The notes under the pieces are model-generated. The model searched no databases, was not told the origin of the DNA, and worked only from the letters and a program-made list of their open reading frames with translations. The position numbers and the translations under genes are program-made. From Balanoglossus misakiensis (Eukaryota > Animalia > Hemichordata): a stretch of DNA of 64,000 bases. Within the stretch, counting starts at the first letter, position 1. The number at the start of each line of letters is the position of its first letter. The stretch lies in assembly GCA_040954595.2 (NCBI GenBank), contig CM082583.2:8418254-8482253 (forward strand). The letters run 5' to 3'. This document shows, piece after piece, positions 25,701 through 60,560 of this stretch.

Positions 25701-26372
25701 GGTAAGTCGAAAAATTGTCATTTTTGGACGATTTTCATGGGCTATAACCCATGGTTTTTTCGAAAAAATGAAGAAATTTTGATATCTCGGAAAGTCGAAA
25801 AATTGTCATTTTTGGACGATTTTCATGGGCTATAACCCATGGTTTTTTCGAAAAAATGAAGAAATTTTGATATCTCGGAAAGTCGAAAAATTGTCATTTT
25901 GGACGATTTTCATGAGCTATAACCCATGGTTTTTTCGAAAAAATGAAGAAATTTTGATATCTCGGAAAGTCGAAAAATTGTCATTTTTGGACGATTTTCA
26001 TGGGCTATAACCCATGGTTTTTTCGAAAAAATGAAGAAATTTTGATATCTCGGAAAGTCGAAAAATTGTCATTTTTGGACGATTTTCATGGGCTATAACC
26101 CATGGTTTTTTCGAAAAAATGAAGAAATTTTGATGTCTCGGAAAGTCGAAAAATTGTCATTTTTGGACGATTTTCATGAGCTATAACCCATGGTTTTTTC
26201 GAAAAAATGAAGAAATTTTGATATCTCGGAAAGTCAAAAAAGTGTCATTTTTGGACGATTTTCATGAGCTATAACCCATGGTTTTTTCGAAAAAATGAAG
26301 AAATTTTGATATCTCGGAAAGTCGAAAAATTGTCATTTTTGGACGATTTTCATGAGCTATAACCCATGTTTT
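10763..26372. repeat. 88-bp satellite DNA array, ~177 head-to-tail copies, inside nAChR intron 2
   Basis: Consensus TTTTCATGGGCTATAACCCATGGTTTTTTCGAAAAAATGAAGAAATTTTGATATCTCGGAAAGTCGAAAAATTGTCATTTTTGGACGA; period 88; most copies 0-2 differences. Confidence 0.98.
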
Positions 26373-26922
26373 TTTGTCGGAAAACGGTCGATTTTTGACA
26401 ATTTTCATGAAAAACATTTTAATAAACGACAAAATCACAAAGATTTGCAATGTTTAGAAATTTTTATTTAGTACCAATTTCATTAGCTATAATCCATTAA
26501 AAATGACCGAAAACGACAAAAAATGGGAGTGAATAACTATTTATAACTTTTTTTTTACAAATGAACGTGTTAGACGACATTCGTATTTAGCTCGCAAACA
26601 CCGGATGTTCATTTATCGGAACGAAATGAGTTCGCGCCATCATGGAAATGAATGAGTCACCAAACGACTCCCAAGCGTCTTCTTCAGCATTGCGTAATTT
26701 CTAAAATGGCGTAAACATTTGGGTGTGAATATTATGTGATAGTTACGAATACATATCTGCAGCACATGTCAAGATTCTTGTTCAGATATAACCTTTCCAT
26801 CGGCTTCTGACATACACGTAACCGATAACCTCAGTATTTCCTCTAACTGAATTATGCAACACCAGCTAATAGAAAGAAGCTCATAACAAGGTATGGTGTT
26901 AAAGTATAAATAGGCATCTTAC

Positions 26923-38642: not shown

Positions 38643-39680
38643 TCACAAGATTGGAACAACGGGAGATTTAGGTCTTCGTCTCTTCAGGTGTCCCCAGAAA
38701 TGCCGCATCCTATCAATAATCCTGCGATTCCTGGCGAAGTAAACGATGGGGTTGAGCACCGGCGGGCAGTTGATGACGATGGCGGCGATGCGGTGGAAGG
38801 CGTGCGGCAGGGCGTTGCAGTAGTTGTCGAAGATGAGCACGACGGCAGTCGGGAGGTAGCAGACGGCGAAATTGGCAATGATGATCAGCACACTCATGGC
38901 AATCTTGCGGCCGTCTTGGATGCGCCGCGTGCGCTTGGCCTTTTCGGTGGGACTCAACGCTTCCACGGTCTGGGTGTCCACCCTGACACTCTGTCGGCGG
39001 AAAGCCAGGCCAATCTGGGCGTAGCAGATAATGATGGTGACGAGAGGTATGATGAAGAAAAGCAATCCCGATAATATGGGATACCAGAGGCCGCTCTTAT
39101 GCCGCTCGACGTGACAGAGAAAATACCGTTCATCATAGACAGTGCGCGTTTCGGCGGGGATTAGGGGCACAACACTGAGCAGGCATAGGCACCACATGGT
39201 CACCAACATGACGCACACGTAACGCACTCGGAACAGTTTCTCGTGGAGAGTATTTTGACAGACAAGTAAACAGTTCTTTAACGCCAACAGCATGATGGTC
39301 ATTATGGAGACGGAGCCTAGACAGTACTTGAGAGCGGAGACCATTCTGCACAACACCAGTTCTTGCCTCATCCAGCGATGGTGAATGATTGAGACGACCA
39401 GAAAGGGCTGATACAGCATGGATATGACAAAGTCCACAAGTGCGAGATTTAAGATCAGGACGAGAACATTCTTCCTCCTAAAGTTCGCTCTCAGCAGACA
39501 ACACCCTATGATCAACACAGTCGCATTGCTGCAGAAGCCAAACGCCGACAAAGTTGACATGATAAACGCCTGTGACATTATCGCTGCAGGTCGAAGATCC
39601 ACATTGACGGTACAGTCGTTGACCGCTAGGTGAGACGTTATGTTTGAGACGGTCGCCTCGCCAATCTTTGTCAAAGTCAT
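38643..39680 (-). CDS. Intronless rhodopsin-family (class A) GPCR, orphan; melatonin receptor/Tre1-like appearance
   Basis: 345 aa, 7 hydrophobic segments; TM1 GxxxN, TM2 NLALVD, TM3 Cys plus ECL2 Cys, TM4 W, TM5 P..I..CY, TM6 F.VCYLP, TM7 LNPIVY; N-terminal NIT sequon. Confidence 0.93.
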   Translation of the reverse strand: MTLTKIGEATVSNITSHLAVNDCTVNVDLRPAAIMSQAFIMSTLSAFGFCSNATVLIIGCCLLRANFRRKNVLVLILNLALVDFVISMLYQPFLVVSIIHHRWMRQELVLCRMVSALKYCLGSVSIMTIMLLALKNCLLVCQNTLHEKLFRVRYVCVMLVTMWCLCLLSVVPLIPAETRTVYDERYFLCHVERHKSGLWYPILSGLLFFIIPLVTIIICYAQIGLAFRRQSVRVDTQTVEALSPTEKAKRTRRIQDGRKIAMSVLIIIANFAVCYLPTAVVLIFDNYCNALPHAFHRIAAIVINCPPVLNPIVYFARNRRIIDRMRHFWGHLKRRRPKSPVVPIL

Positions 39681-40349
39681 GATCGGCTTTTCAGTGATTC
39701 ACAAGTTCCTTGTCTATAGAGAAGATGTTGTGACGCGGCTTTCTTAGTGTTCCTCGTCACGGGCAGTCACTTTCCCGATTAATACCACTGGAAAAACGGT
39801 ACCATTGCGATAACACCAACAGGATGATGAAGCAAATGATCGCCTTCGCTGCTAAACTACCAACTGGTGATGAACACGTATTGTCCCCCTCGATTTACAC
39901 TTCCAACTAGTCTCAAATCTTGTTTTCATAGACTCATATTCCTAAACTTCGTAGAATCTTTCACGCGCAGCAGTTATGGCGTGAGTTTTATCTTGTTGCT
40001 CTTGTGTCTTCAGGTGCCTGACGTCTTTGTACTTCTGCGCTTTCTCCCAATATATGTCTGACTCGAACTTGTGAGCGGCAATCACTCCGCTCGACCACGG
40101 CCACTCCACAAATGATAAGAAAGACCTTGTTTCGAACACAATACTGTATTGAGTGTGCCTGTTGGAACAAACCATTTAACTTGAGGGAGGGCCACTTCGC
40201 GACAATACTTTAGTGAGGGGAGCCTTTGTCCAGTAACAGTAGGCGTTCGCTTGAACATACTTTACACGACACTTGTTGCAGTGTGTTTGATACGAGTGCA
40301 CTTGTGAACACGCATGCAACACGTGTGTTCACGTCATGAGATTAACATG

Positions 40350-42302: not shown

Positions 42303-43211
42303 TCACAATATTGTGCAAACGTTTGACTTTTTCATGTCATCATCAATTTTTGATGGCAGAACATCATCATCCTCGTTTGCATCGATCGTTGCGGTCAACT
42401 GAAGGTTTCCGTTGTCCAAGTCTGTCGCAGAAAGAATATGCTGTACACTTCCGTTACTTTTATTGTTGATTACTGTGGCTCCTTGGTGGCAGACTCCATT
42501 TGAAATCTTTCTCGTCTCGCTGTGCGTTTCACCGTTGTGATTCATTGGCATCTGTGCTGTCTCCAGTACCTCCAAGGCAGGTGTTTCACAGCTTTCTGTT
42601 ATCTCACTATCTTCCATCTTCTCCAACACACCACTCTGCTGTGTACTTCCTGTTTTGGCACCAGTAGTGACATATTCTCCATCTTTTCCCTTCTTTATCT
42701 CACTGACACCCTTCATTGATTTATTTGCTTGAATGTGCGTGTGGTTCCCTAACACTTGGTCCTTCCTAACTTGCTCCTTATCAGGTCCAGCTGTTGATAT
42801 GTTTCCATGTTGAGAATCTGCTTCACTGCGAAATGCATTGACAGTGCCAGATTCTTCCAACTCATCTGTACTCTCAAAATCACTTGATATGTGAACTGGG
42901 ACATCGACGTTTGCTATTTCTGTAAATAAAATATCTTCAATATTCACTTCTTTCCGCGGTATGGCATTCTTAATAAGGCGATCGTAAAGTTCTCTCAGTT
43001 TTACAGATGTAAATGGTGCTTCATTTTCAGCACAGGTGAAGTCAATATAGGAATATTTGCTTAATGGCAAGTCGACAGACCCCCTAGGAGGCCAGAACAT
43101 TTTCTCCATGACAAGTGGAATGATGGGTATCTTCTGGACACAGCCTAAGGTGACCTCTCTGCAGCAGCTTGGTAATGTGGTGAACTTTGGTGTGACACAA
43201 CAAAGCATTAC
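42303..43211 (-). CDS. ARM-Death-TIR-TIR-CaaX protein, last exon (C-half of TIR2, low-complexity tail, CTIL stop)
   Basis: ttgcag|VMLCCVTPKFTTLPSCCREVTLG..KIPIIPLV..WPP..YIDF (TIR_2 betaC-betaE); ends KKSNVCTIL*. Confidence 0.85.
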   Translation of the reverse strand, partial: VMLCCVTPKFTTLPSCCREVTLGCVQKIPIIPLVMEKMFWPPRGSVDLPLSKYSYIDFTCAENEAPFTSVKLRELYDRLIKNAIPRKEVNIEDILFTEIANVDVPVHISSDFESTDELEESGTVNAFRSEADSQHGNISTAGPDKEQVRKDQVLGNHTHIQANKSMKGVSEIKKGKDGEYVTTGAKTGSTQQSGVLEKMEDSEITESCETPALEVLETAQMPMNHNGETHSETRKISNGVCHQGATVINNKSNGSVQHILSATDLDNGNLQLTATIDANEDDDVLPSKIDDDMKKSNVCTIL

Positions 43212-43753
43212 CTGCAAGAGGACAACATGAAAGTATAAGCTTCAGTGCAATAAAGGTTTCATGGCATATACCTTTTGGACAGGATGTGCAAGTGTCTGTT
43301 GGACACACGCCCTAGTGTTTGCCCAAGCACCGTCGATGTTCGCCACCCTAAACTTTAACTTGTGGGTGGAAAATGTCCAGATGGTACAGGGAGTGATCAT
43401 CCTGGTTGATCTATTGTGGGTGACACAGTTCGAGCAGGATGCGCCAACTAACTTTTCAAAACACCAGACGTCACTTGCTGGTCTTTTTGCCGGAATTCCA
43501 TGTATCTTTCTTTCACGGACTTGACTTCGTTAAGTGTCTTTTGTTGATTGTGCTGTGCTGTGCTGTATTATTTAGTGACATGCAGTCTGTTTTTGAAACT
43601 GGCCATGTAAATACTTTACATTTGACCTATGATCTTTAGATTATGAATAGGTAAGATCGCAATTATATGTTTGATTTATTCTGACAAACACACAATTGTT
43701 TCTTGTGGTGTAAATTCAGAACACTTAAGCAAAAAACATGATGTGATGTCCAC

Positions 43754-43924
43754 CTTTGAATTTTGAATAGCTTTGGCTGCTTGCTCGGCGAGGGGAACAC
43801 TTCCGAGATTAAGAACGTCCAACCAACATGAGAATCCCAACTGAGACAGCACAGCATTCAACACCAGGGCTTCCGCTAATTTGTCCCATTGATAGCAGAT
43901 GAACACTGACGCTGCTTGATTGCT
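43754..43924 (-). CDS. ARM-Death-TIR-TIR protein exon (N-half of TIR2)
   Basis: cctcag|SNQAASVFICYQWD..LSQLGFSCWLDV..AIQNSK|gt; TIR box 1 F(I)xY and GxxxWxD; phase 0/0. Confidence 0.88.
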
Positions 43925-44530
43925 CTGAGGATGAAGACAACAACATTAACATAAACTTATAAATCAGACAAGCAATGATACATACTGGTAACACTACATT
44001 GATTGATTTTCAAAGAGCAGTATCTATTAAACAAATGCAAACTTAATCAATAGAACTGCATTATAGCAACTTTATATCAAAGCTTTGATTATTTGCATCA
44101 TGTAATTTTAGCGATTTTAGAACTAGTTATAAATGTAAATAGTAATGTTATATGTTTGCAGAATAAAGCTGCATAGAAAAGTTGACACATAGGCCATTCC
44201 CTATGCAAAACTTTCAATGAAAATTAATCCTCCTGTACGTCTCAGTGAATATGTCAGGTGGATCGACAGACAAGACATAAAACTACATTCCTGACATCAG
44301 TCCTGCTAAATTAATGTTCCCCAGTATACCATATAATTACTTAATTGCCTCAATTGGCTCTGACAATGATGAAAGGTTACCCATGACGCGTCCATGTGAG
44401 ATACCCTTTGTACAGGGCCTTAATAACAAGGCTCACATTTCTTGTCCATGCATCTTTCGTGTAAAGGATATTCCTGTGACCTTTCATAATCACCATCTAA
44501 AATCATCCAAGAGACAGGATACATACATAC

Positions 44531-44619
44531 CTCAGGAGTCTGCTTAATGGGAAATTTCAATAAGCTCTCTTGTAAGTTGGGGGATATCTTCTCAAGAGTG
44601 GGTATCCAGTTTTTATATT
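44531..44619 (-). CDS. ARM-Death-TIR-TIR protein exon (inter-TIR linker)
   Basis: cacaag|(E)YKNWIPTLEKISPNLQESLLKFPIKQTPE|gtatgt; phases 1/0 fit neighbours. Confidence 0.75.
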
Positions 44620-45444
44620 CTTGTGAAAAAAAAGATAAAAAAAACTTAATATGATTATTAGAATTTAATCTGAAGGGCAAACGTTTTCTATTGGTATCAT
44701 TATACCTGCATGGTTGAAACATTATACATGTACCACTGAGATAAAAAACAAGGGCAGTATTAGAATAGCTGCATGCACCCCATGCAGAGCAGCTAGTACA
44801 TTGTACACTACTATTTCATTTACCTCAGGTTATTTTTTACAGCACGCACATATGCGAACTTTCTGACATTAACGTCACAATATTCAGTGGAGTAACTTTG
44901 GATTTATAGTGCTAATAGTAGAAATTAACCATCAGAAAATTAATCTACAGTCCCCCAAATTTAGTCAGCTTTTGCCATTTCAAAAGTATATCTGTTCACA
45001 AAATTTAGCTTAAATTCGATCAAGCATTCTTGGGATATCAATAAGACAGACATATAATCACAGACAATGATCACTGTGGCATATAACTTGAGCCCTGATG
45101 TATGAAAAAACGGCTAAAAAGTCCGCCCTACAGCCTTATAAGATCAAACTGTGACACAAATTAATATTTGTCTATGGGGACTAAACATGGCCTTGACATT
45201 CACTGGTCTGTGATTTCATCTGTAATTCAATCAGCTTGAAAAGAAAACATTACTAACACCTCAATACACAAGACTAACAGTGAACTGTAAACATTCAAGT
45301 CGAGTTCAACTAAGGAGCAGTGAAAATTGAGAAGTACAGCTTAGACAAACAACAGAGACCTAGCAAAGGTAAAGGTACAACATAATCAGATTGTCCTTAG
45401 AGGAACATAAGACAAGTCAGACACCAAATAAACTAATTTTTTAC

Positions 45445-45682
45445 CTGCTTTGGTGATTTTGTCTACTCTGGGTGGCACATAATAGCAGATTCTGGCTAAG
45501 AGTTCCAGGAAATGAGAGAGCGGCCAAAAGATTCGTCCTCTTCTATTCTGAGCGCTGAATTCATACAACTGTACACACGGCAACTGCGAGAAGATGACAC
45601 TCATCGGGCCAGATGGTGGCCATTGCAATGGACCAATGATAACTGGAATAATTGGCTTGTCCAATCGTTGGGCCAGCTGGAC
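45445..45682 (-). CDS. ARM-Death-TIR-TIR protein exon (C-half of TIR1)
   Basis: cacag|VQLAQRLDKPIIPVIIGPLQWPPSGPMSVIFSQLPCVQLY...; G|gtaaaa donor. Confidence 0.88.
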
Positions 45683-45900
45683 CTGTGTCAAAATGTTAAT
45701 ATGTTTATCAATCAACCCTGATGAGATTACGGTAAAATGCACTTATTAGTTAATGAACAAAACCATGCTGGGAAAGGTTTTAGTCACCTTTGATACGCCG
45801 AACACCATATGCAAATGTGGCCACAGTTACCATGGAAAGTTGAGGTCTGGCCAATCACAGATTGCCCAAAATTCAAAATAGACCCTTTTGAAAATATTAC

Positions 45901-46163
45901 CTGTTTCAAACATGTAGGTGATGTCATGTATGTGCTGGTGCACATAACTAACACCAATTGACAGCCTTTCATGGCTTCTTCCATTTTCTGTAACAACTTC
46001 TCGCCACTTATAAACTTGCCCTTGTCCATCCAGCAGTCTAGTCCTGCCAGCTCCAAATGATAATGCAGCAACTTAACCTCTGAGTGGTTGCCAGAATGGT
46101 AACTGATGCAGACTGGGGAGATTTTCTCGGTGGTGCCGGCGAACGTCTCGGGTATGAGTTCAT
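45901..46163 (-). CDS. ARM-Death-TIR-TIR protein exon (N-half of TIR1); NAGNAG acceptor 46166/46163
   Basis: PVCISYHSGN..LELAGLDCWMDKG....GEKL...MEEAMKGCQLVLVMCTSTYMTSPTCLKQ|gtaata. Confidence 0.88.
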
Positions 46164-46939
46164 CTGCTTGTAAAGGGAGAGAGAAAGAGACATCTGAAAA
46201 CAAATTCTTCCTAATGTGTATGGCTACAATCAACTAAAATAATGCTATGTTTTATCAAAATTTGGACAAAGGACCTGAAGTCAAATTTGAAGCAAGTGGA
46301 CCTGCTGTTTTTCAGAATAGATCCACAGTATACTACATATTTTTGTCAAATATTTCCATGCTGTGTAATCATAAAGGAAATATTTCTACAATACAAAAAA
46401 AATGATTCCCAACTATATAAGCTATATAGGAACATAGTGATGTTTATGTGATACAAATGATGTTTGACTACTGAAAGTCTTACTGTGAATGCCTTCAGGA
46501 GCTAACATGTTTCTTGCATTGGGCCATGAAAGTCGTGACTTTATGTTCATTTTGAATGTGTTATACATGCTCATATAAACATCATGCGACAGGCAGTACC
46601 AGAAGAATTACTCAGATGTGAATAAATAAAAGCCTGAAATGCAATGGGCAGTTGGAATGTATAAACATGACCAGACTCAGATTGCTCATGCAGTTTAATT
46701 GCTACCATGAACAATTTGCTTTTGATGTTTATAGAATATGAAATCAACATGCAAACTGAATATGTCATAGTGTGCACTGATTTGCATAATGCATGTACGA
46801 TATGTGCCTGTGATTGACAGTGCAACATATATGACGTCAGCTAAGCTTCTCTGACCTTTACACGTTCCAACTCGTCCAATGCCTAAAGAAACAGAAAACT
46901 GAGTAATCTGACAAATGGCTGGTGCAACCTTCTCCATAC

Positions 46940-47213
46940 CATTCACTGACGAGGAATCAGTCAAGATCTCAAGGCAATCTTTCCTCCCTACGTGTTGTAG
47001 TGCGACGTACACTGCATGGACTGCGCTGTAGTCGTCGCGCGTCTTGCACCACTGACCGAGAAGTGCGCATGTCGGACTGGTTTTCTTGGAGAAGGACTGG
47101 ACGTCTTCAAACGAGAAGCCAAGATACACCGCCAAGAACCTCCAGTCATTTGGGCCATCTCTGTCCAGCAGAACAGCTAAACGATTGCACCATTCTGGTA
47201 CAGAATTGACATT
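46940..47213 (-). CDS. ARM-Death-TIR-TIR protein exon (Death domain)
   Basis: RLAVLLDRDGPNDWRFLAVYLGFSFEDVQSF...SPTCALLGQW...VYVALQHVGRKDCLEIL; classic Death-domain pattern. Confidence 0.9.
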
Positions 47214-47397
47214 CTGAAGGGAAACCACAAAGAATAGGAATCAAAGATGGTTATACAGTTTTATTAAAAATTGCCAAGAGAGTTTTATTTCTGCTTCAAC
47301 TTTGAAACATTTGGGGTTTTGTTCCAGGTAACACACAGTGGCGCACAAAAAAACACAATTTACAGTTGCTGCTTCTTTCCAAAATTGCAGTACTCAC

Positions 47398-47608
47398 TTG
47401 TGTCTGATTAATTTTGGAATCTTCATTCTTCACGTTCTTCTCATCGCGCAAGGCTGTCTTCTCTGCTGAAAGTGCATCCGTCGGTTTCAGACAACTTCCT
47501 CCACTGACGTTTGATTTTTCATTCCCTTTTTGGTTGTTTTGATCAACAGCTTCGGGTTGTTCCAGAGAAGGATTGTGCGTTTTGGTTTTGAAAAAGTCAG
47601 GGTCTGTA
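47398..47608 (-). CDS. ARM-Death-TIR-TIR protein exon (hydrophilic linker)
   Basis: ttcacag|(S)TDPDFFKTKTHNPSLEQPE...DSKINQTQ|gtgagt; open frame, phases 2/0 fit. Confidence 0.7.
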
Positions 47609-47761
47609 CTGTGAAAATAAATCCGGATTGGGTTTTAGCTTTTGTGGTCACCCATGGGAGCTTCCAATGTACCATCTGTCTGTAAGACATATAACTTATC
47701 TCGTCCAATGAAATCTTGTCATGAGAGGGGATGTAGTTATAAAATATGTATAATTATTTAC

Positions 47762-47970
47762 CTGTTGCCATCAATGAAATCCATAAGACTTTGAACATAG
47801 TCCTCACTTCCCCTTGTTCCCAGAGCAGTTATTGCACTTTTATAATTTTGTAAGAGTTTCTTGTATTTGATTCCGATTGCTCGTATACATGTAAATATGG
47901 CAGGGTAGTAGGCTTCATCGACTGCTTTGAACTGTACCAAGCAGTTGGTCAGAATTTTCCGAGCTTCTGT
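47762..47970 (-). CDS. ARM-Death-TIR-TIR protein exon (end of VEPH1/Melted-like helical region)
   Basis: ttcag|TEARKILTNCLVQFKAVDEAYYPAIFTCIRAIGIKYKKLL...DGN AG|gtaaat. Confidence 0.8.
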
Positions 47971-50900
47971 CTGAAATGTATGGCATTGAAACAGTAATTT
48001 TAAAAATCAAGGCACAGATATAGTTTGTTAACCTGTCAGCAAATGCAAAGAAGCATATTGTTAAGGTTTCTGTGTGCGTCTCACACTTTTCTATCATTGT
48101 ATGGGGGTATCTGGAGAAATGATAGGTGGTAATTCCATCCTGCACAAACTGGTACTAGCTGTTACAGACTATAAATTGTACTGTTCTCTTTAAATGTACC
48201 GTACTGTACACCTCCCAAAAAACCAAGTAGATGGGGCACATTAACAGGAAGCAATTTGAGCTGATGGAACCAATGATGTGCACATAAACGGTGAATCCAT
48301 CAGGCGGCATAAATGGAACAATTCAAGTAAGCAGTGATTGCCATTTAACCACCTTTGAGCTGTCAACAAAGAAAACCTTAGACAGTAATTTTCATTTCAT
48401 AGGTGTACTGAAATAACTGCAATAGCATTCGCAAGGCCCATTACTGATCGTTAACATCATGGTCATGCCTGGCTTGATTTGAAAAGCCAGCAGCCCAGTT
48501 TCCCTGAGAAGAAAACGAACTAGAGATTGACAATTTCGATTTTCAAGTGTGTATATCTTTACAGCGTGTTTGCTATACTGTCCACCAAAAGATTATATGA
48601 TCGTGCTGGCGTCAAACTTGCAAAAGATTTCACCTTTCTGGAGTTGGTTTCAGTTATTAGTTTCATCCACACAAATGTTCAATTTTAAAAGGTTTGGATG
48701 TGTAAGTTCCATCTGCAACAGTTTCCAGAATTTTAGGAAAAACCTCATCAAATCTAATCTAAACCACGCACTGTCTATTAGTGTTCAGTACAGTCACACC
48801 ACAATACAGTAAGCTAAACTGAAAGAAATTGAATCTCACACTCTATAGAGATTTAATTAGACTCTGGGTCAAGGCCCACTTGTTTACTATATATGGGAAA
48901 GTAGTTGTCGGTATCTGTTAATATTTAATGATCAATATATATACAATAATTGGTTTGAAGGAGGCAATTTTGAGTTTGATGAGACCTGCTTACGATACCT
49001 CCATTATTGACTTCTTTCTCCTCTATTACTGGTCGAAAAACATCTTAGTTATTGAATAAATAATACCAAAGGTTCTATAGGCTTCCACACCCACATGAGT
49101 GCATGGATATCAAAAAGTTCAAATCCATGGTTTTGGATGCACGCATGCATACATAACTACGTGCACAGGAGACTAGGGATTTAGGTAGCTTGTGAAGTTC
49201 ATGACAGCATATTTTTCACCGCAAATATTGTGGTAAAAAAAACATATTTACATGAAAGACCTACATACCAATAGAAAGTTAATCTTATGCGTGGAATCAG
49301 CGTCTTGATTTCATGAAAATTGGTTCTTTAAATTTTCTCCATAGACTTGAGATTTGCGGCCATTTTAAATTTCAAATTTATTATCACTGGAAATGTTGCA
49401 TGGTGACCCAGATTATCGACCTAAGAAATTCATTTTTTTTTGACGCGAAAACTTCCAGAGCAGTGCAATAACTCTAGTCTATCGCTTTTAAGTTGAGAAT
49501 ACAAATTGGGGGTAATGCCTGCAAAATTTTGAATGAAACAGCAAATTTGCCTTAAATTTGAAACCGAAAGTGGAGAAAAGCTGCAGGAATCATACAATTT
49601 TCACTCATTTTTTCCCTTTCACTAAACGTTCAATTTACATTCACTGTGTCTAAACTACACCTTCTAGGAAGGGTTGTTACAGGAACTCTTGCACAAAGAG
49701 CTCACAAATACCATATTCTGCTGTTGGCAAGTATTTCAAACCAGTGGCAATTTTTTCTCTTTCATCAAGTTTACCCTGCAGATCATTCACATGAAGAAAA
49801 GAAAGACAGGACTATATGTGATACTTAGACAACCACAGGTTTCAAATTGCTACCCATGCATGCAGTTCAAGGTAAATCTTGCGTTACACGTATACATACA
49901 AATATTAATACACCCACACACACTGATATGCTCTTGGAAAATCAAGCCTGCTGCAATTTCGGCTCTGATAACTTTGCTCAGGTTTTTCCCTGCATAAATG
50001 TCACTGGTGCATACAATTTCACTTGACTGATTCTAAAAGCAGGTTTTTGTTCAAACTCCACTATCTGTAACTGTTTACTTTTTTTCTCGCAGCACTTTTC
50101 TTCCGTGTATTGACCGTGATTTCCTGTTTGCCGTCCTACATATTTTTTTCGTTCTGTTTGGCTCTCAACATAGCAAATGTGTGTATAATCAGCATGACTC
50201 TTGTTATAAAATAAAGTTTAGACTTGAATGTACATGTACGGTACTTGTCATTCAATAACAATGGTCAGTACATGACTTATGGACGACCTGAAAACTAGGA
50301 ATCTAAGGACACTGTATGGAGGAAGGATACATTAAGATTGTTAACGAAACCTGAAAAACAACACATAAAAATGCCAGAAGTTGCAATTAGTGACACTGTA
50401 AGTAATCTGCAGCATTTTCAGAAGATTTGCTAGCCTTAAATTGTGTCTATTATTTGATAAAAAAATTATAGATGGCAGGCGTACGAATTAGATACTGTTG
50501 CAATAAGAAGTACATAATAGTCTAGACATTTGAATATCTGTTATATGATATGCAATTGGGGTTGCATTTCACCAATCATTTTCTGCAGTCGTATTTGTAC
50601 CAAGGTGAAGCTTTAATGTTGGCTATTATAGATAATTCAAATGGTGTCAAAATACATCGTACATGTCAATTGAATGAAATTCATCCCTGCACGCTTTATG
50701 CTCACATGAAAAGCAAAATTTTGTTTTCTTCTTTGGACTCAAGGAAAACTTGTGAAATGGATAAAATATCTAGCTAATCGGTCAAGTTGTAATCATTGTG
50801 CAGTGTACATTACATTGAGATGAACTGTTTGCATAAACTTGTGTGCTATGGTACATTCTAATCTCCTAACAAAGCTTTTTGTTAGCTTATAATCTGAAAT

Positions 50901-51026
50901 ATAAAATGTATGAAATCTTCTCGGGGAATGGTATAAAACTTGTGAAAGACACAGAATTGTATCTGATATCTGTCAATTTAAGTATAAATTCAGTTCAACA
51001 ATTATTGTTTGCAAATTTACACTCAC

Positions 51027-51236
51027 CTCATTTTGCATTGCCACATTGGTAAATATTTTGTCCACATAGCCCACGTGGTAGGGTTGCCTTTCAACCAGCA
51101 TACTGAGTTTGTCGACCATTGCAACAAATCGCTCGGGATAGTGATCAGACAGAATACAAAGGCAAGGCAGAGAAGCCGATGACACCACAGTGTCACTGAA
51201 ACTGTCAGTCAAAATTCTTAAATAGGAAAGGATTTG
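51027..51236 (-). CDS. ARM-Death-TIR-TIR protein exon (helical repeat region)
   Basis: tttcag|QILSYLRILTDSFSD...LSDHYPERF...LVERQPYHVGYVDKIFTNVAMQNE|gtgagt; resembles VEPH1 segment ERFPYLTGQMARIYGAVG (from memory). Confidence 0.82.
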
Positions 51237-51419
51237 CTGAAAAAAAACACAGAAAAAAACAGACATAGATGAGCAGACTGATCATTATGCAGATGGACTG
51301 TATACTGAGATTATAATCACCTCAACAGCCAACGCTTCTTGACACACAGTACAATACTATATATTACTACATCACACCATTAGAGTCTACCTACAGAAAT
51401 TCAATGCTAGATTTGGATT

Positions 51420-51780
51420 TAGGTTAAGTGTGCACCTCAAAAATCAAAGTCTTAAACTTTTCTCATATTTTACTCAAGGCAACAGTAGATTATGAAAATT
51501 GAGAATAAAATATTAAGGGTCACTGTGCTAAACTTTTATATGATAGAGCGAAATTGTCTCAAATTTGAAATTCAAAATGGTAACCTGAATCTGTGTTATC
51601 TTTATGAAGGAAATCAAAAGTAGAAGTGAATGATTTTTTTATGAAACAAGACAGTAAACACCCAGTTTTCTTCTTCGTTTTTAAAAAAGACTCCTCACAC
51701 ACTTTAATATAGCAAAGAATTGAAAGGCTTCGAGAATTACCATCTTACTGAAAATTATGTCCCCGCGGCACGGATATGTA
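51420..51780. mobile_element. Degenerate dispersed repeat (MITE-like), intronic
   Basis: Similar 5' part to the 40350 copy; boundaries approximate. Confidence 0.45.
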
Positions 51781-54011
51781 CATATGTCGATCACTAAAAC
51801 GACATGTAAAATGGTTCTCAGTCCTTGGAACCCTTTTTCATTACAATCTAAATCACAGCCAAGCCAGATGGAAGGAAATGAATGGAAACAAGATCCCAAC
51901 CTCGAGGGCCATGGCGGATATGTGTGACTTATAAGGGTACGAAATCTCAAATCTAACAAGCATATTAACATCTGATTTAAGCCTGCGAACACGCACCCTA
52001 GAACAATCATTAAAATTCATACTATAATTCAGAAAATCGGATAGAAGTCACTATGGTATGTCATAAGAGACAAGACATTTAGGCTGAAGTCATTATAGAG
52101 AGATGCAGTGGAAAGAAACTTTTGAAATACATGGAATCATTAAATGTAAATCTAGTAGGTCAACATGCATTAACTCACTTGATATAGTTCCCCTAAGTGT
52201 TCACTGCTGAACGATTAGAAAACATATCTTGAAAAGTGGAAAGTTTGACAATGATGAACAAAGAAAATATCAACGAATATGTCATATTTATTGGTAACAT
52301 ATTTCATAAACTGGGCAGCCACTTTTATCAGTATAGATCTCAAACTGATAACTTAAAGAAGAACGAAAGACTTAAACTCTGCAAAGAAACAGCAGAAAAA
52401 CACTTTGGGTGATGCAGTGGTAGCTATGGCAACAGTTGTAACAATAGTCTCTTTGTATATCCCCGCAATCATGCTAAATTTACACCCAACTATGCTGTGG
52501 AAAATGTTCAATCCTAATGACTCTTGCTAAAGAACTTCCTGCATCATGTTGATTCCGATCCCGGCCCATTGAAACACAGACCAATCGTGGCATATCTTAC
52601 AGGCATGCCGAGCAATTAACACACTTCATGGGCTCAAAAGCCTTTTGTGTTACGTATATGAAACAGCCACATGCACTGACAAATTGAGATTCTCATTCCC
52701 ACCGTCTTCCTTTCCCCCTTCCTGTTGACAGGAAACGACGTACACAGCTGCAATATGGATGCAATGTTTAAAGAGGGTGCATGGACAATACAACTTAGTG
52801 CCGCAAGACAGCGCAATTATATCATCTTCAAGGAATCGAGCTTCTGATCGACGGTTCAAGTTAGTTTCAGCGATCATTCACTCCATGTGAAGATGGTGAC
52901 ATGTCGTCAGAAACCATTCTTTGATCCAATGACAGGTCCACAGCTAGGATACTGTTATTATCTTTGTTATACAAATTTCCATGCTGGCTTCTTTTTTCAC
53001 CATTTTGAAAGTTTCAAACAGCTACACAGTGGGTCAAATCATCCCGAGTTCCACGTGTGCTATGGTTGGGGAGGGCAGTTAATTTTTTCAGGATGCGGCT
53101 GTAAAAATTCTTCCTCTACTAGATATGTCATGATGTAATTATATCAATTCAGGCACATCTTGCAATTGTTCAAATCATATGCTAAATGCACTGACAGATC
53201 AGCCGGCAAATGGGATTCTTTCCAACTAAAACTCACAATTTTATAGACAGAGAAACATCGAGTACCTATGGGCCATGTGTTTTATCAAGGATTGTCAAAA
53301 TCACCTTCTTTCCTTCAGCTTTTGGCATTTACAATTTTTTTTCAAACTACAGTGTATCAGATGAACCCTAGTCCTTTACAATCAATCCCATTCCCCCCCC
53401 CCCCCCAAGGCATGAGTCAGCTTTGTTGATTATTCCTCCATTATCTGCAACCTTCAAAGAGCGTTTACTTTCAGCTTATATTCTCCAACCTCTGCATGAA
53501 ACAAGACCCTCCGGCTGAACCCTCCCTAATCAAAACTTGTTGAAGGATCACACAAGCTGTCAACAGAGGGCAGTTGACTACTTTACCCGGGGCACACATA
53601 GACTCTAGAGGGCAGTAGATTCTAGAAGGCGGTATGATGCCGGCTGAGGTAAAATTCTCAGGCTTTATTTGTAATTCTTATAACAATATGGGGAGACCAG
53701 TGAGAGAGAAGTGGTAAATTTTGAATATTCAATGCTAAAATTTACTGTACGTTATTCGGTCTTTAAAAGCCTGTATAGCATCCTAAAATGCAGTTTGTCA
53801 GTTACCAAGCCTGCATATATGTCATGACCATTGACACTGTTCATAAATGAATTCATACCGGGACCTAAATTAAATTCTAAGTAATTAAACAGTGCTGGCC
53901 GTACACATACAGGTTGTGTGTGACGTACCTCGATCCAAACATTCATTCACCACAAAAAAATGCATTTCTCATCCACCAAGCAAAAAGAACCATAAGTTAA
54001 TCGCGACCAAC

Positions 54012-54157
54012 CTGGGGATATTTCTCTGCGACGGCTTGATAGAGTCTGAAGACACTGTATTTCTCCATAGCCGGCAAATCTTCCACATGCAGACTGATGG
54101 CGTTCAGGTTGGCCATGATTTTCTCTTCACAGTGTGGAAACAAAACGCTGAGACATG
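54012..54157 (-). CDS. ARM-Death-TIR-TIR protein exon (helical repeat region)
   Basis: ttttag|(A)CLSVLFPHCEEKIMANLNAISLHVEDLPAMEKYSVFRLYQAVAEKYPQ|gttggt. Confidence 0.8.
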
Positions 54158-54700
54158 CTAAAATGAGAAAGAATTGAGGCTGAGAGCTGTGTTTGACAAA
54201 GAATAAGGATCTTGCATGAGATCTACAACTCTGAAACGAAAAGTAATATAAGATTAAAATTTTGCTCATGCCTTTATATATTGCATGGCTAAGACAAAAA
54301 TCTAGAATGAGAGCAAAAGCAGAGGTGATCAACATTTCTTGAACTACTAGTATTTTCTCTCCACATTATCAGCAAAATGTAATGAATTGGCAAAAAACCT
54401 GATAATAACATTCTGCAATTTTTTTTTACTTCACAAGATTGAAACATTAAGAACTTAGAATGGAACGTTGGGATTTTGTTTAATTGGCATGAAATATAAC
54501 ATATACAAAGCTATCAGATCCATCAACCGTAACTATAAAGACGTGATACAGATCTGTGGGTCACCATGGCAACATATGCAAAACTGAATCAATAGTTCAC
54601 ATACATGTATGGAAATCCGGGGAGATAAATTTGCATACTAAGCCGCAAATGTCTACAGATTTTGACCCCTGAAGTACAGATTATTGAATTTTACGTGTAC

Positions 54701-54893
54701 CTGCTAGATTGAAGTGGTGATATGTCAGATAACACTGGAGGATTTCGTCTATGTATGGTATCAGTAATTCAGGATATGCATTCAATGTGTACACGAATGC
54801 CGCGGCCGAGTCACTGATGTGCGGTAACTCCATCCTCATCAGAGTGAAAGCATGCGGTAGAAAGCCTTGGATGACGTCGGGGTTTGAGTGATT
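54701..54893 (-). CDS. ARM-Death-TIR-TIR protein exon (helical repeat region)
   Basis: gacag|NHSNPDVIQGFLPHAFTLMRMELPHISDSAAAFVYTLNAYPELLIPYIDEILQCYLTYHHFNLA G|gtacac; this frame is not in the ORF track. Confidence 0.8.
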
Positions 54894-55956
54894 CTGTCAG
54901 GAAAAGACAAGACAAAACAAAGCTATTATGTTTTGTTACAAAAAAACAAAAGTACTTCTTTAATAAAATATGGTTTTGTGTCAAAAACAAAAAATGAGGA
55001 AGCAAAATAGCTAGAGTTGCGAAAAATTTATTGACTCATAAAATTTCTGATTTATAATCCTCCCTGTGTGATTATATGGCCATAGTTACTGTTGATTAAG
55101 AGACACAAATATACATCTTAAACATAAAAAACACTAGAAATAAATTACCGACAAACTGACAAAGACTACAATTCAGCTATTGACATCCTGCCAAACAATA
55201 GACAATCTTACAACTGCTTCAGAGGACGAAGGACTAAATCTCCTGGAAGTAAACCCAGTGTTGGGAGATTATAGGAGCAGTTCAAAGGGTCACAGACAGG
55301 TCACCAGAACCAGTGATTGGGATCAGACGTGCCATGCAACTGTCACAATGGGATGATGTCAGCAGAGTCAGTTCTAATTGAGTGGAAAAAAAATGCCAGG
55401 CCCCAGGAAGAATGCCCTTATCCAGGAGAATTGTGCTGAGAGTAAATCGGGCCTTTGTTAGTTTGTAGGATTGGACCCTGCAGCTGTGACGTGACCAATT
55501 TGGAACCAAATTGTATCTATAATGCCATGCAATGTAATTGAGCAGAAAGGGACTACTGTGTTCACTTCACAGCCGTGACATCATGAATCGGAGGGCAGTG
55601 AGTAATTACAGAATTCAATCGCAACCAAAGCTGCACCCTGGTTGTAATTCACATTTTCTTGAGTCTGAACAATCCATGCCCTTTAACCACCGATTTTTTC
55701 ACTGGAGAAACGACTACTTCTCAACAGACAACCATTGATCAAATGTTCATGTTTTCTTGTTGTTGATACAGGCGAAATTTTGTTGAAGCATATGAGTTAG
55801 CCAACAATTAGCCATCTGTCAGATCAACACATAACAAATCTGTCCTTCGATCAATCTGTCCATCTATCCATAATAAGTGCTAGTGAAGATGATACATGTA
55901 TAAACATACACTGCCTTTAAACTTTTCTGTATAATATTAACAAAAAGTCGACTTAC

Positions 55957-56110
55957 TGGATGAAGAAAGCCCAGGAGGATTTCTTTGACGACATAGCCAT
56001 GCAGTGTCAGTTGTCTGCGTAGGCTTGCCTTGCCAACCAGCTGATGCTTGAGAGAAAACTCCAAGATTCTGAGAAGCTGGGATGAGTGATGGGCAGAGGT
56101 GTTGAAATTC
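55957..56110 (-). CDS. ARM-Death-TIR-TIR protein exon (helical repeat region)
   Basis: cgcag|(M)NFNTSAHHSSQLLRILEFSLKHQLVGKASLRRQLTLHGYVVKEILLGFLHP|gtaagt; phases 2/0. Confidence 0.78.
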
Positions 56111-58181
56111 CTGCGAACACAAAAAGTGAAATGAGCTCCAAATGCAACAATTCAGTGCCAATGTTCAATGTATTTTTCCTTGGGTGCTTGTTGTGCCCAG
56201 CAAGAAACCATTCAGCATCTCACGGACGCTTCCATCAATGGTGGCTTTACAAAAGTCCTGCTGTTTAATTTCTGTGACAATTGTATATGTGTTTATACGA
56301 GTGTCTGGTAAATTTAGCCTTCACTTTGACTGACAGTCTCGTTTGCAGAAGACATATTCTGCGGCAGATGCCATCGCCATTCTGTACTCATTTCCCCTGA
56401 CACAAAGAAATTCCCATAGCAACGCTGGTTACCGAAAAGATATTTTTAAAAATCCACAGATTTACATATCAAGCGGTGTGCTTATTAAAAACGGTAACAA
56501 TTCACAGAGTAAGAAAAAGTCAATATTTCTGTTTTTTCCAGCATTCACACAAAGAATAAGTTTGTTAGGTGGGTGTGAATGTTTAACAACAATGATAACC
56601 TATGACCCCGTTTATTACTAGCTTGAATAATTTATAACCACCTGTTGATTGATGTCAGATTTGAACTACGACCCGTGGGTCAAACGAAAAGTTACAGTGA
56701 AATATTTGCATTTGGAACACCATAATACAGGCCAACAGACTAAATTATGACAATTGTGTCTTAATAATATGTTTATTTGGAGTGTGGTTTCTCGTTTTTG
56801 AAATTTGCCTTTCACTTGTGAAATTTGTTTAGTCCTGTTTGGTGTGAATTGTGTAAAACTAAAACGAGAATTTTTCTGGAGTGGCTGAGACACTCATAGT
56901 CATAAACACACCATAACCAGGTCAGTCAAGTGTCAATGCATTGCAAGCACACTGCTTTTAGTTTAGACCACCATATAATTCAAACTTCGTGCAAAATATA
57001 TGCTATCAGTTTCAGGGAGGTAGTTTCAGGCTAGTGACTCGCACACATATTCCAACACTGACCAAAGGAATGTAAACAGTGAATTTAATCACGTTTTTCA
57101 TGAAACAGAAGTGCATACCACTATAGAAGCCGAAAGGTCAGCCTATAAAGTCTGTCCTCGCTGGCAGAGTTATTACACACTTGAAACTGTGAGTTTAATG
57201 GTATATCCAAGCCAAATACCTAATAAACCTGTATATGAAAAATGCCATCCGTCTAGGGCCTGAAACGTCAAATGCCACATTGTACACTAGAACATTTTGA
57301 CATAAACTGTCCTTTGAAATATAGCAAAATGATATATGATTTCTAAAAGTTTTACATTGCAACACAAGAAACAAGGTAAGATTTCCCTGAATAACGATAT
57401 GAAAGTCCAAATTTACTTTGAAAGAAGGAACTAAAACCAAAAAAATTCCATGGTATCTACTCACTGTGACCTTTTAGTTTTCTGGTGGATCAATACTGAA
57501 AAGATGCATAGACTTACTTTGAAATACAGGATATTCAAGATATTAACCCATAAACGAAGGCAGTTCAAAAATTCCACTATAATTGAAATGGCCCCATTTA
57601 AGATTTTAAGTGGGTCCGTGTTCAGCTCCTCAATTGTCCCGGAAAACAATTGAGCGGAAACGAAGTGGAACTTTTCCTGTTAACAACGGCGGTGTAAGTA
57701 CAGGAGTTGAGCTCAATAACTTGTTGGTTTACAAGGAGACTGGCAAATTACAAACGATTGGAAAGTGGCAAATGGTTGGAAAGCAGCTATTAAAATCACA
57801 GTTCACTTAAATCAATCATGGGATATCTGTCACGAAAATAACAGGATTTCAAAAAAGGACGAGTGACTCCATTATAAATTTAACTACATTATTCCACTCC
57901 CATACTAGAGTAGACATATACTATTAGCCTTTGAACTATAAACTCATTTTGCGTTTTGACGTTTCCTGCCTCGTGCAATCAATTATTATATTTCCGTTTT
58001 CTAGAATTTGTCACGTTTTCTGGAAGTCGTCAAATTTCATTCAAGGGCATGCTGAAATGAAAGATTATTTATAGAAAACTACATCATCATCATCACTAAT
58101 TTTATAACCAAGCTGTGTATTCATATTAACTACTATTTGCATCGGACCAATAACATAATTGATATCAGGTCAATGACTTAC

Positions 58182-58315
58182 ATAATCTTCATGGTAACAT
58201 TTCGCATTATTGCCCAGACGATTTCTACAGCTTCCCAATCATCAGACGTGATCCAGTCCTGCTGTAACCACAATTCAAAGGCATCCAATATACCAACAAT
58301 GTCATCTTTGCTTAT
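58182..58315 (-). CDS. ARM-Death-TIR-TIR protein exon (N-terminal helical region)
   Basis: acacag|ISKDDIVGILDAFELWLQQDWITSDDWEAVEIVWAIMRNVTMKI AT|gtaagt; phase 2 joins the 56110 exon. Confidence 0.75.
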
Positions 58316-59799
58316 CTGTGTAAAAAAAAAACATTCACACAATGAATAAGATGAATGGTATAGTCAATATAATAGCATATTTCTTTTATTTTCTAAATTT
58401 CAACCGCACATTAAATTTAATGCTGCAATTATTCTATAACTTTTTCTCAAAACATTTGAAATTGGTTGTTTTGGGGAGTGAGTGTTTATGTACCTACCCA
58501 CCTCCCATTCAAACTGCTCAGAAGATGTACAACATAAACATTTATTACTATAGCCAGTTGTTGCAGCCTGGTTACCGTGATACAGTGTGTTTCTAATGTA
58601 GGTGCACAAATAGAGGAACTGGGGTAACATGACCCTCGCAAATAATGACTGTCTGGAATGGGAATACTTTAGAGGACTGTTCATTCAAATATTGAAATGA
58701 TATGCAAATGTTATGCAAATCAGACAGAATGGGATATACCTATTGGCCATAGAGGGATTTACCTTCTGGCCATAGAGGGCGCCCTTAATTGAAACAAGCT
58801 CGGTTAGGAAAAAAATATTTCAATCTTTTATTCATGATCTCTCATAATGCACATACTACCTCAATCCACTGCAATACTAGTAAAATATTGTCATCAGTGT
58901 TCTTCAATACTATTGACAACATAATATGAATATCAATAGTGGTATATGTACTGAAATCATTTTACAAATTGTAGCAACTAGTAAATGTTCTGCTTGAATG
59001 ATTAATTGATTATGGTTATTAGCAATTCTTTGGTTCGTTGGTTCTGGTCAGTTTCCTAATGCATTATAATTGCAGGTGTTATTATAGTGGGGTATATCAA
59101 TATTATTTTTATATCAATTTCATTTTCGGTACTCTATTTAAGACTACACACTTCATCACAAGTGAACATGACACTCACGCAATCATAATATAAGTTGACT
59201 TCCTGCAGCATAAAAATTATAGTAATTGCCATCATCACCATTAATTATTCAAATGGAAACTGTCAATGATGAGCCACATGACGGCTAAATTGCTAATCCA
59301 AGGTCAATAGAAGCATACACGGACAAGTTATGACCAGGGAGAGTTGGAAATTATTAATCGATCAATATGCTGTAACCTATGCCAGTTTTCAGTCTTTTTT
59401 GTTATTTTTATGAAAATGCTGCTTCATATATATTTCATTTTTAGTGTGTAAACTCTGCATAACTGAAATAAAATTTTACCAGTTCACTAAAAGACCGTTA
59501 AAATATAGTTTGCTCATCATTCTGCTGCTTTACAGAATTCATAAATTAATATTAAAGGACTCGACATCTTTGGACACCTGGTGAGCGAGATGTGTATTAT
59601 GCGATATCTGGGGCATCATTTCTGTCTGCCAAATATCGATTTGCTCTTCTGAAAATGGGCAGAAAATAAACAAACCTACACAACACTCGAAAAATGCTGC
59701 TGGTAGTACACGTAGATTAAATCGTAAAAATGAACAACTGTTTACGAAGGCTCTCGGCTTCAGCTTCGCGACAGACATGTTACAAAGGGCTTTCATAAA

Positions 59800-60560
59800 A
59801 TATATGTTATGCCCGACCACGCATGTTGTCAGCTGACGCGGCCGGCAAAATAAGGATGTTTATGAATAATAAAGGAGTGTGCTTTTACCTTCTTTGGGTC
59901 TTGCATATACCGCTTCAGTAGTTTCCTTTCGTGGGCCATATTGTCCCCGGTGTTTTTGTCAAAGACCGACCGGACGTGTAGCTAGCTGGACAGCCAGAAA
60001 AGTTACGGCTTCAAGTCTGACTTCACCGGCGTCATTGTCGATTTCATCCCGCCGAAATCAGCACATCTACATCTGTTCATCACTGCCCGATGGCTGCTTG
60101 GATTTAAACGCGCTTTTTCGATTTGTGGGCAGTTCGAGTTTACAACAAGCGACACGTCCTCACGCAGCGCAACCTATTTTAGGGCGAGTGTGCCACCACG
60201 CTAGTCATACAAACGCATTAGCTCCTCTGTTCTTATATATTGTAATCCGTTACGCACGCCCGTAAGCGCTGAAAGCCTGTCGTGTTTGCTGGCGTCGCGT
60301 ATGGCAACCAAACGCAACGCGCTGTTTTCCCGCGTTGGCACGCGTATGTTTGGCCCGCTATCTATCAGAGCAGCATCGGTAAGGTATCGCCCATGGTCAG
60401 AGTTCGGTTTCGGGTGGCTAGTCAAGGCGGTAGTTGGGGTGGCAACGGTCAAACGACCTAGGCGTTACCTTGCTCGACTCTGCACCTATTGTCCGTTCAT
60501 TGTCCCCGCCCGCCTCATCTTCAGAATTCCTACGTGATATGAACGTTGACCTGAAAATAG
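59800..60560. promoter_or_regulatory. CpG-rich island, probable (bidirectional) promoter
   Basis: Sharp rise in CpG and GC content relative to the CpG-depleted introns on both sides; coincides with the 5' end of the TIR gene. Confidence 0.55.
59889..59939 (-). CDS. Candidate first coding exon of the ARM-Death-TIR-TIR gene
   Basis: First ATG after an in-frame stop, MAHERKLLKRYMQDPKK|gtaaaa, phase 0 fits the 58315 exon; lies in the CpG-rich region; tentative. Confidence 0.45.

What the first reader, a model, noticed from the sequence alone, without database searches (positions are those of the whole stretch)
42303..59939. Candidate new innate-immune architecture: VEPH1/Melted-like ARM solenoid - Death domain - TIR - TIR - prenylation box
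Seen: 13 firm exons plus one tentative first exon join in phase to ~1083 aa. Six N-terminal exons encode amphipathic helices that follow, segment by segment, the N-terminal ARM-like region of VEPH1/Melted as I recall it (AVEI, FSLKHQL..TLHG..KEIL, NHSNPDV, EKYSVFRL, ERQPYHVG, EARKIL). Then come a linker, a clear Death domain, two TIR_2-type domains with WPP motifs, a low-complexity tail and CTIL. Known: VEPH1/Melted ends in a PH domain, MyD88 is DD-TIR, and SARM1 is ARM-SAM-SAM-TIR NADase. Inference: a domain-shuffled sensor/adaptor paralleling SARM1 logic (autoinhibitory ARM, oligomerising DD, TIR effector). I know of no characterised protein like this, though uncharacterised homologues may exist in invertebrates.
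Basis: partly seen in the sequence, partly recalled or inferred. Interest (0 to 1): 0.85.

Follow-up and report, generated by a model that had tools for sequence, protein, structure and literature searches.

The report
Half-disarmed VEPH1-like Death-TIR-TIR acorn-worm protein
This acorn-worm gene belongs to an already named but little-studied invertebrate Armadillo-Death-TIR-TIR family whose Armadillo part is related to VEPH1/Melted; this copy lacks the family's coiled coil and one enzyme-type glutamate, so it likely works as a lipid-anchored regulator rather than a full enzyme.

Summary
In detail: 14 minus-strand exons join through 13 in-phase GT-AG introns into 1083 aa (solenoid, linker, Death, TIR, TIR, tail, CTIL). 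A 1096-aa Glandiceps protein matches end to end, exon 1 included (55%). The solenoid is homologous to the VEPH1/Melted N-terminus (hhalign 99.85%, 302 columns).

The architecture is not new. A paper describes ARM-Death-TIR-TIR as ecTIR-DC family 6 (Gerdol 2017, not readable here), and at least 264 relatives exist, including sea-urchin 'MyD88-like L1/L2' and Aplysia ARM-MyD88-like genes.

Not found in my literature searches: the VEPH1 link, the family-wide CaaX box (104 of 122), and the near-invariant alphaC glutamate in both TIRs.

The window gene is a divergent paralog found only in acorn worms. It has no coiled coil, TIR1 Glu is Gln in 4 of 4 orthologs, the BB-loop motif is gone, and the conservation pattern is reversed: fixed solenoid, relaxed Death domain.

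Best reading: a prenylated scaffold or regulator of family or TLR signalling (0.42). The SARM1-style autoinhibited enzyme reading is untested. Verdict: new variant of a known kind; interest 0.5.

The parts
59889..59939 (-). Exon 1 (coding part, ATG at 59939), aa 1-17
   Evidence: N-terminus matches Glandiceps P0002
58182..58315 (-). Exon 2, solenoid aa 18-61
   Evidence: tblastn P0002 74%
55957..56110 (-). Exon 3, solenoid aa 62-113
54701..54893 (-). Exon 4, solenoid aa 114-177
54012..54157 (-). Exon 5, solenoid aa 178-226
51027..51236 (-). Exon 6, solenoid aa 227-296
47762..47970 (-). Exon 7, end of the VEPH1-like solenoid, aa 297-365
47398..47608 (-). Exon 8, poorly conserved linker, aa 366-436; stands where canonical family members have a coiled coil
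   Evidence: equivalent stretch of P0002 has pLDDT under 50
46940..47213 (-). Exon 9, Death domain (about aa 447-522)
   Evidence: Pfam Death E 1.6e-10; donor choice from orthologs
45901..46163 (-). Exon 10, first half of TIR1; its last codon (45903-45901) is Gln615, where the family has Glu
45445..45682 (-). Exon 11, second half of TIR1 with the WPP motif
44531..44619 (-). Exon 12, inter-TIR linker
43754..43924 (-). Exon 13, first half of TIR2
   Evidence: Pfam TIR_2 E 1.6e-6
42303..43211 (-). Exon 14: second half of TIR2 (Glu800 at 43157-43155), disordered tail, CTIL CaaX box (42317-42306), stop codon
59600..60600 (.). CpG-rich region around exon 1, likely the promoter
   Evidence: CpG o/e 1.24 against 0.50 in the gene body; promoter role inferred

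Best explanation
The gene encodes a divergent acorn-worm paralog of the invertebrate Armadillo-Death-TIR-TIR family (ecTIR-DC6), predicted to be anchored to membranes by a C-terminal geranylgeranyl group and likely acting as a scaffold or brake on TIR signalling rather than as a full NAD-cleaving enzyme. Shown: the domain order, the VEPH1-type solenoid, the CaaX box, and the loss of the coiled coil, of the TIR1 glutamate and of both BB-loop motifs. Also shown: its solenoid is the most conserved part and its Death domain the least, the reverse of canonical members. Inferred: the canonical proteins are membrane-tethered oligomers (likely trimers) with a variable solenoid and two enzyme-type TIRs. 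In this paralog the fixed solenoid would dock on one conserved host protein at the membrane, and the TIR pair would join canonical ecTIR-DC6, TLR or MyD88 TIR assemblies and damp or position them.
For: Family membership: the best phmmer hits of the ortholog's solenoid after its own clade are mostly ARM-Death-TIR-TIR proteins. The window's Death/TIR1/TIR2 are 37-39/45-49/37-40% identical to two canonical hemichordate proteins. The four window-type proteins form one long branch apart from canonical hemichordate copies (SH-aLRT 99, quick tree; solenoid tree, 3 rows, 100). AlphaC Glu is present in 122 of 123 (TIR1) and 121 of 123 (TIR2) other aligned family rows; TIR1 has Gln in 4 of 4 window-type proteins. 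The BB-loop pattern occurs twice in 106 of 122, once in 15 and never in 1 canonical protein, and in 0 of 4 window-type proteins. The coiled-coil end motif is in 102 of 122 versus 0 of 4. Identity between genera: window type, solenoid 63-74%, Death 42-51%; canonical, solenoid 30-50%, Death 76-84% (solenoid columns 232-372). CaaX is in 104 of 122 canonical and 4 of 4 window-type ends; 80 of 105 end in Leu; Cys background is 1.65%; 0 of 9 VEPH1 ends have it. Leu-ending CaaX as a geranylgeranyl signal is established knowledge. No hydrophobic 19-residue window exceeds 1.53. Precedent for inhibitory invertebrate TIR adaptors: amphioxus bbtTIRA/bbtTIRC (PMC6043800, passage; their architecture was not seen).
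Against: TIR2 keeps its Glu in 4 of 4 window-type proteins, and both TIRs stay 51-79% identical among orthologs, so one active site may remain. The Glu does not track enzyme activity reliably (PMC7075850, passage), so the canonical family may not be enzymatic and the loss may mean little. Gln615 is the last codon before a splice donor, so the change could reflect splice-site preference. The 16 residues before CaaX have net charge -1 in 4 of 4, against a family median of +3, which weakens stable plasma-membrane targeting. The canonical set is the best 120 of 264 hits to one query plus a few others, which inflates its conservation counts. No expression, localisation or binding data exist. The clade's position in the family tree is unresolved.
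Confidence: 0.42

Rival explanations
1. SARM1-like half-site enzyme: TIR1 has become a structural half and TIR2 (Glu800) the catalytic half of a tandem NAD+-cleaving unit. The solenoid would hold it off until a conserved ligand binds.
For: Glu800 is kept in 4 of 4. The closest solved TIRs to a family profile are annotated NAD+ hydrolases: SARM1 TIR E 2e-4 over a stretch matching SARM1 residues 560-663, AbTIR E 2.2e-4, Cat1 E 6e-4. Foldseek ranks full-length SARM1 and TIR-1 first for the ortholog model (E 6e-6), though TM-scores are only about 0.16/0.24, which reflects domain order. That SARM1 active sites span two TIRs is recalled, not from a call.
Against: The BB-loop pattern is lost in both TIRs and the coiled coil is gone. 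The position four residues before the Glu is Ser, Thr or Asn, where SARM1 has Trp (W71 in the numbering of PMC7075850). The solenoid is related to VEPH1, with no SARM1 ARM among the 18 phmmer hits.
Confidence: 0.23
2. Positive MyD88-type adaptor: a membrane-anchored sorting and signalling adaptor in one chain, binding TLR TIRs and recruiting IRAK or other Death-domain proteins to activate NF-kB.
For: Death plus TIR; relatives are named MyD88-like; ecTIR-DC6 transcripts are high in bivalve gills together with TLR or MyD88 genes (PMC6836662, PMC5549309, passages); loss of the Glu fits adaptor TIRs such as MyD88 and TIRAP (PMC7075850).
Against: The Death domain is the fastest-changing folded domain in this paralog. 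The nearest solved Death domain is p75NTR (E 6e-5) rather than MyD88 (E 0.02). The TIRs score as TIR_2 rather than TLR-type TIR.
Confidence: 0.17
3. Non-immune signalling scaffold in the VEPH1/Melted manner: the solenoid binds a growth-factor receptor or kinase, the prenyl group does the job of the PH domain, and the Death and TIR domains are passengers or couple to apoptosis.
For: Solenoid homology to VEPH1; the VEPH1 N-terminal region binds the TGF-beta receptor ALK5 (PMC6734325, passage); strongly conserved solenoid; CpG-depleted gene body, as expected of a broadly expressed gene (inference).
Against: Identity to VEPH1 is only 18-22%, and the window clade is no closer to VEPH1 than other family members are. 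Both TIRs remain well conserved among orthologs.
Confidence: 0.15

Closest known systems
ecTIR-DC family 6 (Gerdol et al. 2017, as described in PMC6836662); includes sea-urchin MyD88-like L1/L2 and Aplysia LOC101850562/LOC101855561
   Same: N-terminal Armadillo-like region, central Death domain, two TIR domains, no transmembrane segment; sequence homology in every domain; CaaX end.
   Different: Shorter solenoid, no coiled coil, TIR1 Glu replaced by Gln, BB-loop pattern absent, conserved solenoid and relaxed Death domain; found only in three acorn-worm genera besides the window.
VEPH1 / Drosophila Melted
   Same: Homologous N-terminal solenoid of about 300 residues (hhalign 99.85%); membrane targeting by a C-terminal module (predicted for this protein).
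   Different: VEPH1 ends in a PH domain and has no Death, TIR or CaaX; about 20% identity.
SARM1 / TIR-1
   Same: Armadillo solenoid, interaction domain, TIR in that order; TIR sequence similarity.
   Different: Death instead of two SAMs; two TIRs; C-terminal lipid anchor; solenoid of VEPH1 type; NADase activity and autoinhibition untested.
MyD88
   Same: Death domain followed by TIR.
   Different: TIR_2-type tandem TIRs, p75NTR-like Death domain, solenoid and CaaX added.

Membership tests
ecTIR-DC family 6 | Long N-terminal Armadillo-like region | tested here: met
   Ortholog model all-helical over residues 2-370, mostly pLDDT 80-98 from residue 100; importin-alpha Z 20.9, rmsd 5.8, 314 aligned. 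About 350 aa, shorter than in canonical members.
ecTIR-DC family 6 | Central Death domain | tested here: met
   Pfam Death E 1.6e-10
ecTIR-DC family 6 | Two TIR domains | tested here: met
   Two TIR_2 hits
ecTIR-DC family 6 | Cytosolic: no transmembrane segment or signal peptide | tested here: met
   Hydropathy scan only: maximum 19-residue mean 1.53, N-terminal maximum 0.62
ecTIR-DC family 6 | Orthology with the reference sequences of Gerdol et al. 2017 | not testable with these tools
   Paper not held; definition taken second-hand from PMC6836662. Homology to bivalve and gastropod proteins of the same architecture is shown.
VEPH1/Melted | N-terminal Armadillo-type domain homologous to VEPH1 | tested here: met
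   VEPH profile scores the window model 106 bits over aa 22-358, reversed controls at most 7 bits; hhalign 99.85%
VEPH1/Melted | C-terminal PH domain | tested here: not met
   No PH hit in the last exon or in the orthologs; PH is found in the VEPH1 hits
SARM1 | Tandem SAM domains | tested here: not met
   No SAM hit; Death domain in that position
SARM1 | Catalytic alphaC glutamate in TIR | tested here: inconclusive
   Glu in TIR2, Gln in TIR1. Equivalence to SARM1 E642 rests on motif position and on the matched range 560-663; no residue-level alignment was seen.
SARM1 | NAD+ hydrolase activity under ARM autoinhibition | not testable with these tools
   Needs enzyme and cell assays
MyD88 | N-terminal Death domain plus a single TLR-type TIR | tested here: not met
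   Death is central; two TIRs that score far better on TIR_2 than on TIR
CaaX-prenylated proteins | C-terminal Cys-aliphatic-aliphatic-X | tested here: met
   CTIL; the pattern is in 4 of 4 orthologous ends and 104 of 122 family ends. Prenylation itself is untested.

The most novel reading that the evidence does not exclude
ecTIR-DC6 is an unrecognised class of prenylated intracellular immune receptor-enzymes. A fast-evolving, tandemly duplicated VEPH1-type solenoid senses pathogens, a trimeric coiled coil and Death domain assemble the complex, and tandem TIRs cleave NAD+. The window gene is its dedicated half-dead helper or decoy, and VEPH1/Melted is the non-immune relative of the same sensor module.
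Probability: 0.22. Interest if true: 0.85.

Novelty: new variant of a known kind. Interest (0 to 1): 0.5.

Why it matters
The family is widespread in invertebrates and named, but I found no functional study of it. Three features make it testable: a family-wide prenylation box, near-invariant enzyme-type glutamates in both TIRs, and a variable solenoid on a frozen signalling core, the pattern expected of a receptor. [quoted passage not shown] The window paralog is a natural loss-of-feature variant, useful for separating scaffold from enzyme function.

Tried and rejected
RNA evidence: no RNA holder was listed; this says nothing about expression. No whole genome is held.

Solenoid-to-TIR-pair complex prediction on the Glandiceps ortholog gave no verdict (score 0.15, mark 0.34, alignment not used), so autoinhibition is neither supported nor opposed.

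Single-sequence folding gave a poor model (pLDDT 41.9); the 116-sequence alignment gave 72.1. Both model P0002, not the window protein.

ESM Atlas look-ups returned only generic HEAT/ARM clusters and no VEPH1. Word-based searches did not reach VEPH1; the full HMMER search did.

Rejected gene models: the 1111-aa model with the later exon-9 donor, and separate ARM and Death-TIR genes (end-to-end ortholog; uniform CpG depletion). The EDC3 fusion of the Ptychodera record is not seen here: its first 560 residues have no tblastn match in the window.

The careful tree did not finish; both trees are quick trees on subsets (51 of 128 cores; 31 solenoids) and leave the clade's position open. A residue-level alignment of family TIRs to SARM1 was not obtained, so the Glu equivalence stays inferred.

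Literature: 'VEPH1 + TIR domain + death domain' gave 0 papers. The CaaX/prenylation/TIR search listed 3 papers with unrelated titles (listing only). The NADase/armadillo/invertebrate search listed only the TIR survey. Searches were seen as listings, apart from the papers cited. Gerdol 2017 and a recalled sea-urchin MyD88 paper are not held and may already note some of these features. The column heads of TIAMMAt supplementary table 4 were unreadable. Passages of PMC4346834, PMC2575513 and PMC6321704 (with its supplement) did not describe this architecture. Earlier scan findings: none.
Full report
Observation. The gene lies on the minus strand. Fourteen exons from 59939 to 42303 join through 13 GT-AG introns in phase into 1083 aa with a single terminal stop. 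Acceptors are pyrimidine-rich (mean 0.75, against 0.50 for 1007 background AG sites). Pfam finds Death in exon 9 (E 1.6e-10), TIR_2 in exon 10 (1.8e-13) and a second TIR_2 across exons 13-14. A search with exon 6 returned 3 proteins of 16 candidates, all from acorn worms: Ptychodera flava, Glandiceps talaboti and Saccoglossus kowalevskii. The Glandiceps protein (1096 aa) aligns from model residue 1 to 1083 at 55%, supports exon 1, fixes the exon-9 donor and ends in the same CTIL. CpG o/e is 0.50 along the gene and 1.24 around exon 1. One transcript is supported by homology, not by reads.

The VEPH1 link. phmmer with the Glandiceps solenoid over 1.84 billion representatives gave 18 hits at E up to 0.001. 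Three are the window-type proteins. Nine belong to a wider family: eight carry Death and TIR_2, and one Saccoglossus model is partial. Six are VEPH1/Melted-type: five named so by their sources and one an unnamed tardigrade PH-domain cluster. No other HEAT or ARM family appeared. A profile of 12 VEPH1/Melted N-termini scores the window model 106 bits over aa 22-358, and 96 of 122 family proteins at E under 0.001 (Z 1e6); reversed controls reach at most 7 bits. The seeds came from the hit list, so I also ran the reverse: a family profile without the window clade scores 11 of 11 VEPH1-type proteins 83-143 bits, reversed at most 3.4, and hhalign gives 99.85% over 302 columns. For scale, a whole-family profile scores the best solved HEAT protein 38 bits. 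The AlphaFold model of the ortholog (mean pLDDT 72) matches importin-alpha at Z 20.9, rmsd 5.8, 314 aligned. A review (PMC6734325, passages) says VEPH1 has an Armadillo-type fold at 57-337 and no paralog in any species; this family is a domain-level relative.

The family is known. A search with the core of a crinoid member found 264 proteins at E up to 1e-20. The 120 listed come from echinoderms, hemichordates, amphioxus, molluscs, annelids and a nemertean, often with several copies per species; I could not see the other 144. Two sea-urchin members are deposited as MyD88-like L1 and L2. Two Aplysia hits are listed as ARM-TIR and MyD88-like in PMC9334734 (passage and supplement rows). [quoted passage not shown] 2017, a paper I could not read. 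PMC5549309 (passage) reports family 6 as high in mussel gills. The architecture is therefore not new; I found no functional study in the searches named under Tried and rejected.

What the family shows. Of 122 members examined, 105 have Cys four residues from the end and 104 fit a CaaX pattern; 80 of the 105 end in Leu, the usual geranylgeranyl signal (established knowledge); the Cys background is 1.65%. The alphaC glutamate is present in 122 of 123 TIR1 and 121 of 123 TIR2 rows (1 of 124 family proteins gave no core and 127 rows were aligned, 4 of them window-type). A heptad repeat precedes the Death domain; its best solved matches include gp26, reovirus sigma-1 and EibD, which I recall as trimeric coiled coils. 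The nearest solved TIRs include SARM1, AbTIR and Cat1. Among paralogs of one species the solenoid is 29-90% identical, while Death and TIR are 77-100% (7 pairs). That is the pattern of a variable receptor on a fixed signalling core (inference). The set was chosen by similarity to one query, so these counts overstate conservation.

What is special about the window gene. It groups with three acorn-worm orthologs on a long branch, apart from canonical hemichordate copies (SH-aLRT 99; quick tree of 51 of 128 cores). The solenoid tree rooted on VEPH1 agrees and leaves the placement open. The orthologs score 207-858 bits in the full search and the next hit 76, so no close ortholog outside acorn worms was seen. 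All four lack the coiled-coil motif and the BB-loop pattern and carry Gln at the TIR1 glutamate, while TIR2 keeps Glu. Between the same three genera their solenoid is 63-74% identical and their Death domain 42-51%; canonical copies show 30-50% and 76-84%. The CaaX box is kept, but its upstream charge is -1 rather than +3. Caveats: Gln615 is the last codon before a donor site, and the glutamate does not reliably predict activity (PMC7075850, passage).

Mechanism. Most likely (0.42) the protein is geranylgeranylated, docks through its fixed solenoid on one conserved partner, and uses a half-disarmed TIR pair to position or damp canonical ecTIR-DC6, TLR or MyD88 assemblies. The domain content and losses are shown; prenylation, partners and inhibition are inferred. 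Rivals are a SARM1-like half-site enzyme using Glu800 (0.23), a positive MyD88-type adaptor (0.17) and a VEPH1-like developmental scaffold (0.15). Foldseek ranks SARM1 first for the full model, but with TM-scores near 0.16/0.24, reflecting domain order only.

Verdict. Real gene; known architecture; new variant. The VEPH1 homology, the conserved CaaX box and the reversed, half-disarmed paralog were not found in the open literature searched, but the two most relevant subscription papers were not readable. Interest 0.5. The boldest reading, a prenylated receptor-enzyme class with a dedicated decoy, has probability about 0.22 and would merit 0.85.

Noticed in passing
window 10760-26375: 15.6-kb satellite of about 177 copies of an 88-bp unit, 98% matches; AT-rich but CpG o/e about 1.85.
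   Followed up: no
window 3-428 and 2330-3477 (+): Two near-identical tandem GNAT acetyltransferase genes (Pfam Acetyltransf_18).
   Followed up: partly
window 7902-9164 (-): Cys-loop ligand-gated ion channel subunit with long exons (Neur_chan_LBD E 5e-27).
   Followed up: partly
window 38646-39698 (-): Single-ORF rhodopsin-family GPCR (7tm_1 E 3.6e-28), the downstream neighbour of the gene.
   Followed up: partly
window 60301-60378 (+): A 26-codon Arg-rich ORF start followed by a strong GT donor, head-to-head with exon 1; no Pfam hit. CpG is strongly depleted downstream (o/e 0.21), suggesting a second gene on a shared promoter.
   Followed up: partly
P0001 (Ptychodera flava record): The ortholog is annotated fused behind EDC3-type domains (LSM14, FDF, YjeF_N), joined at exon 3; probably an annotation chimera, with no EDC3 match in this window.
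   Followed up: partly
P0007/P0022 (Saccoglossus records): A second divergent paralog lacks the glutamate in both TIRs and ends in a UBX-like domain instead of CaaX.
   Followed up: no
P0003/P0050 (Saccoglossus records): The ortholog's N-terminus is replaced by a 7-residue repeat, probably a mis-modelled exon; the newer annotation splits the gene in two.
   Followed up: no
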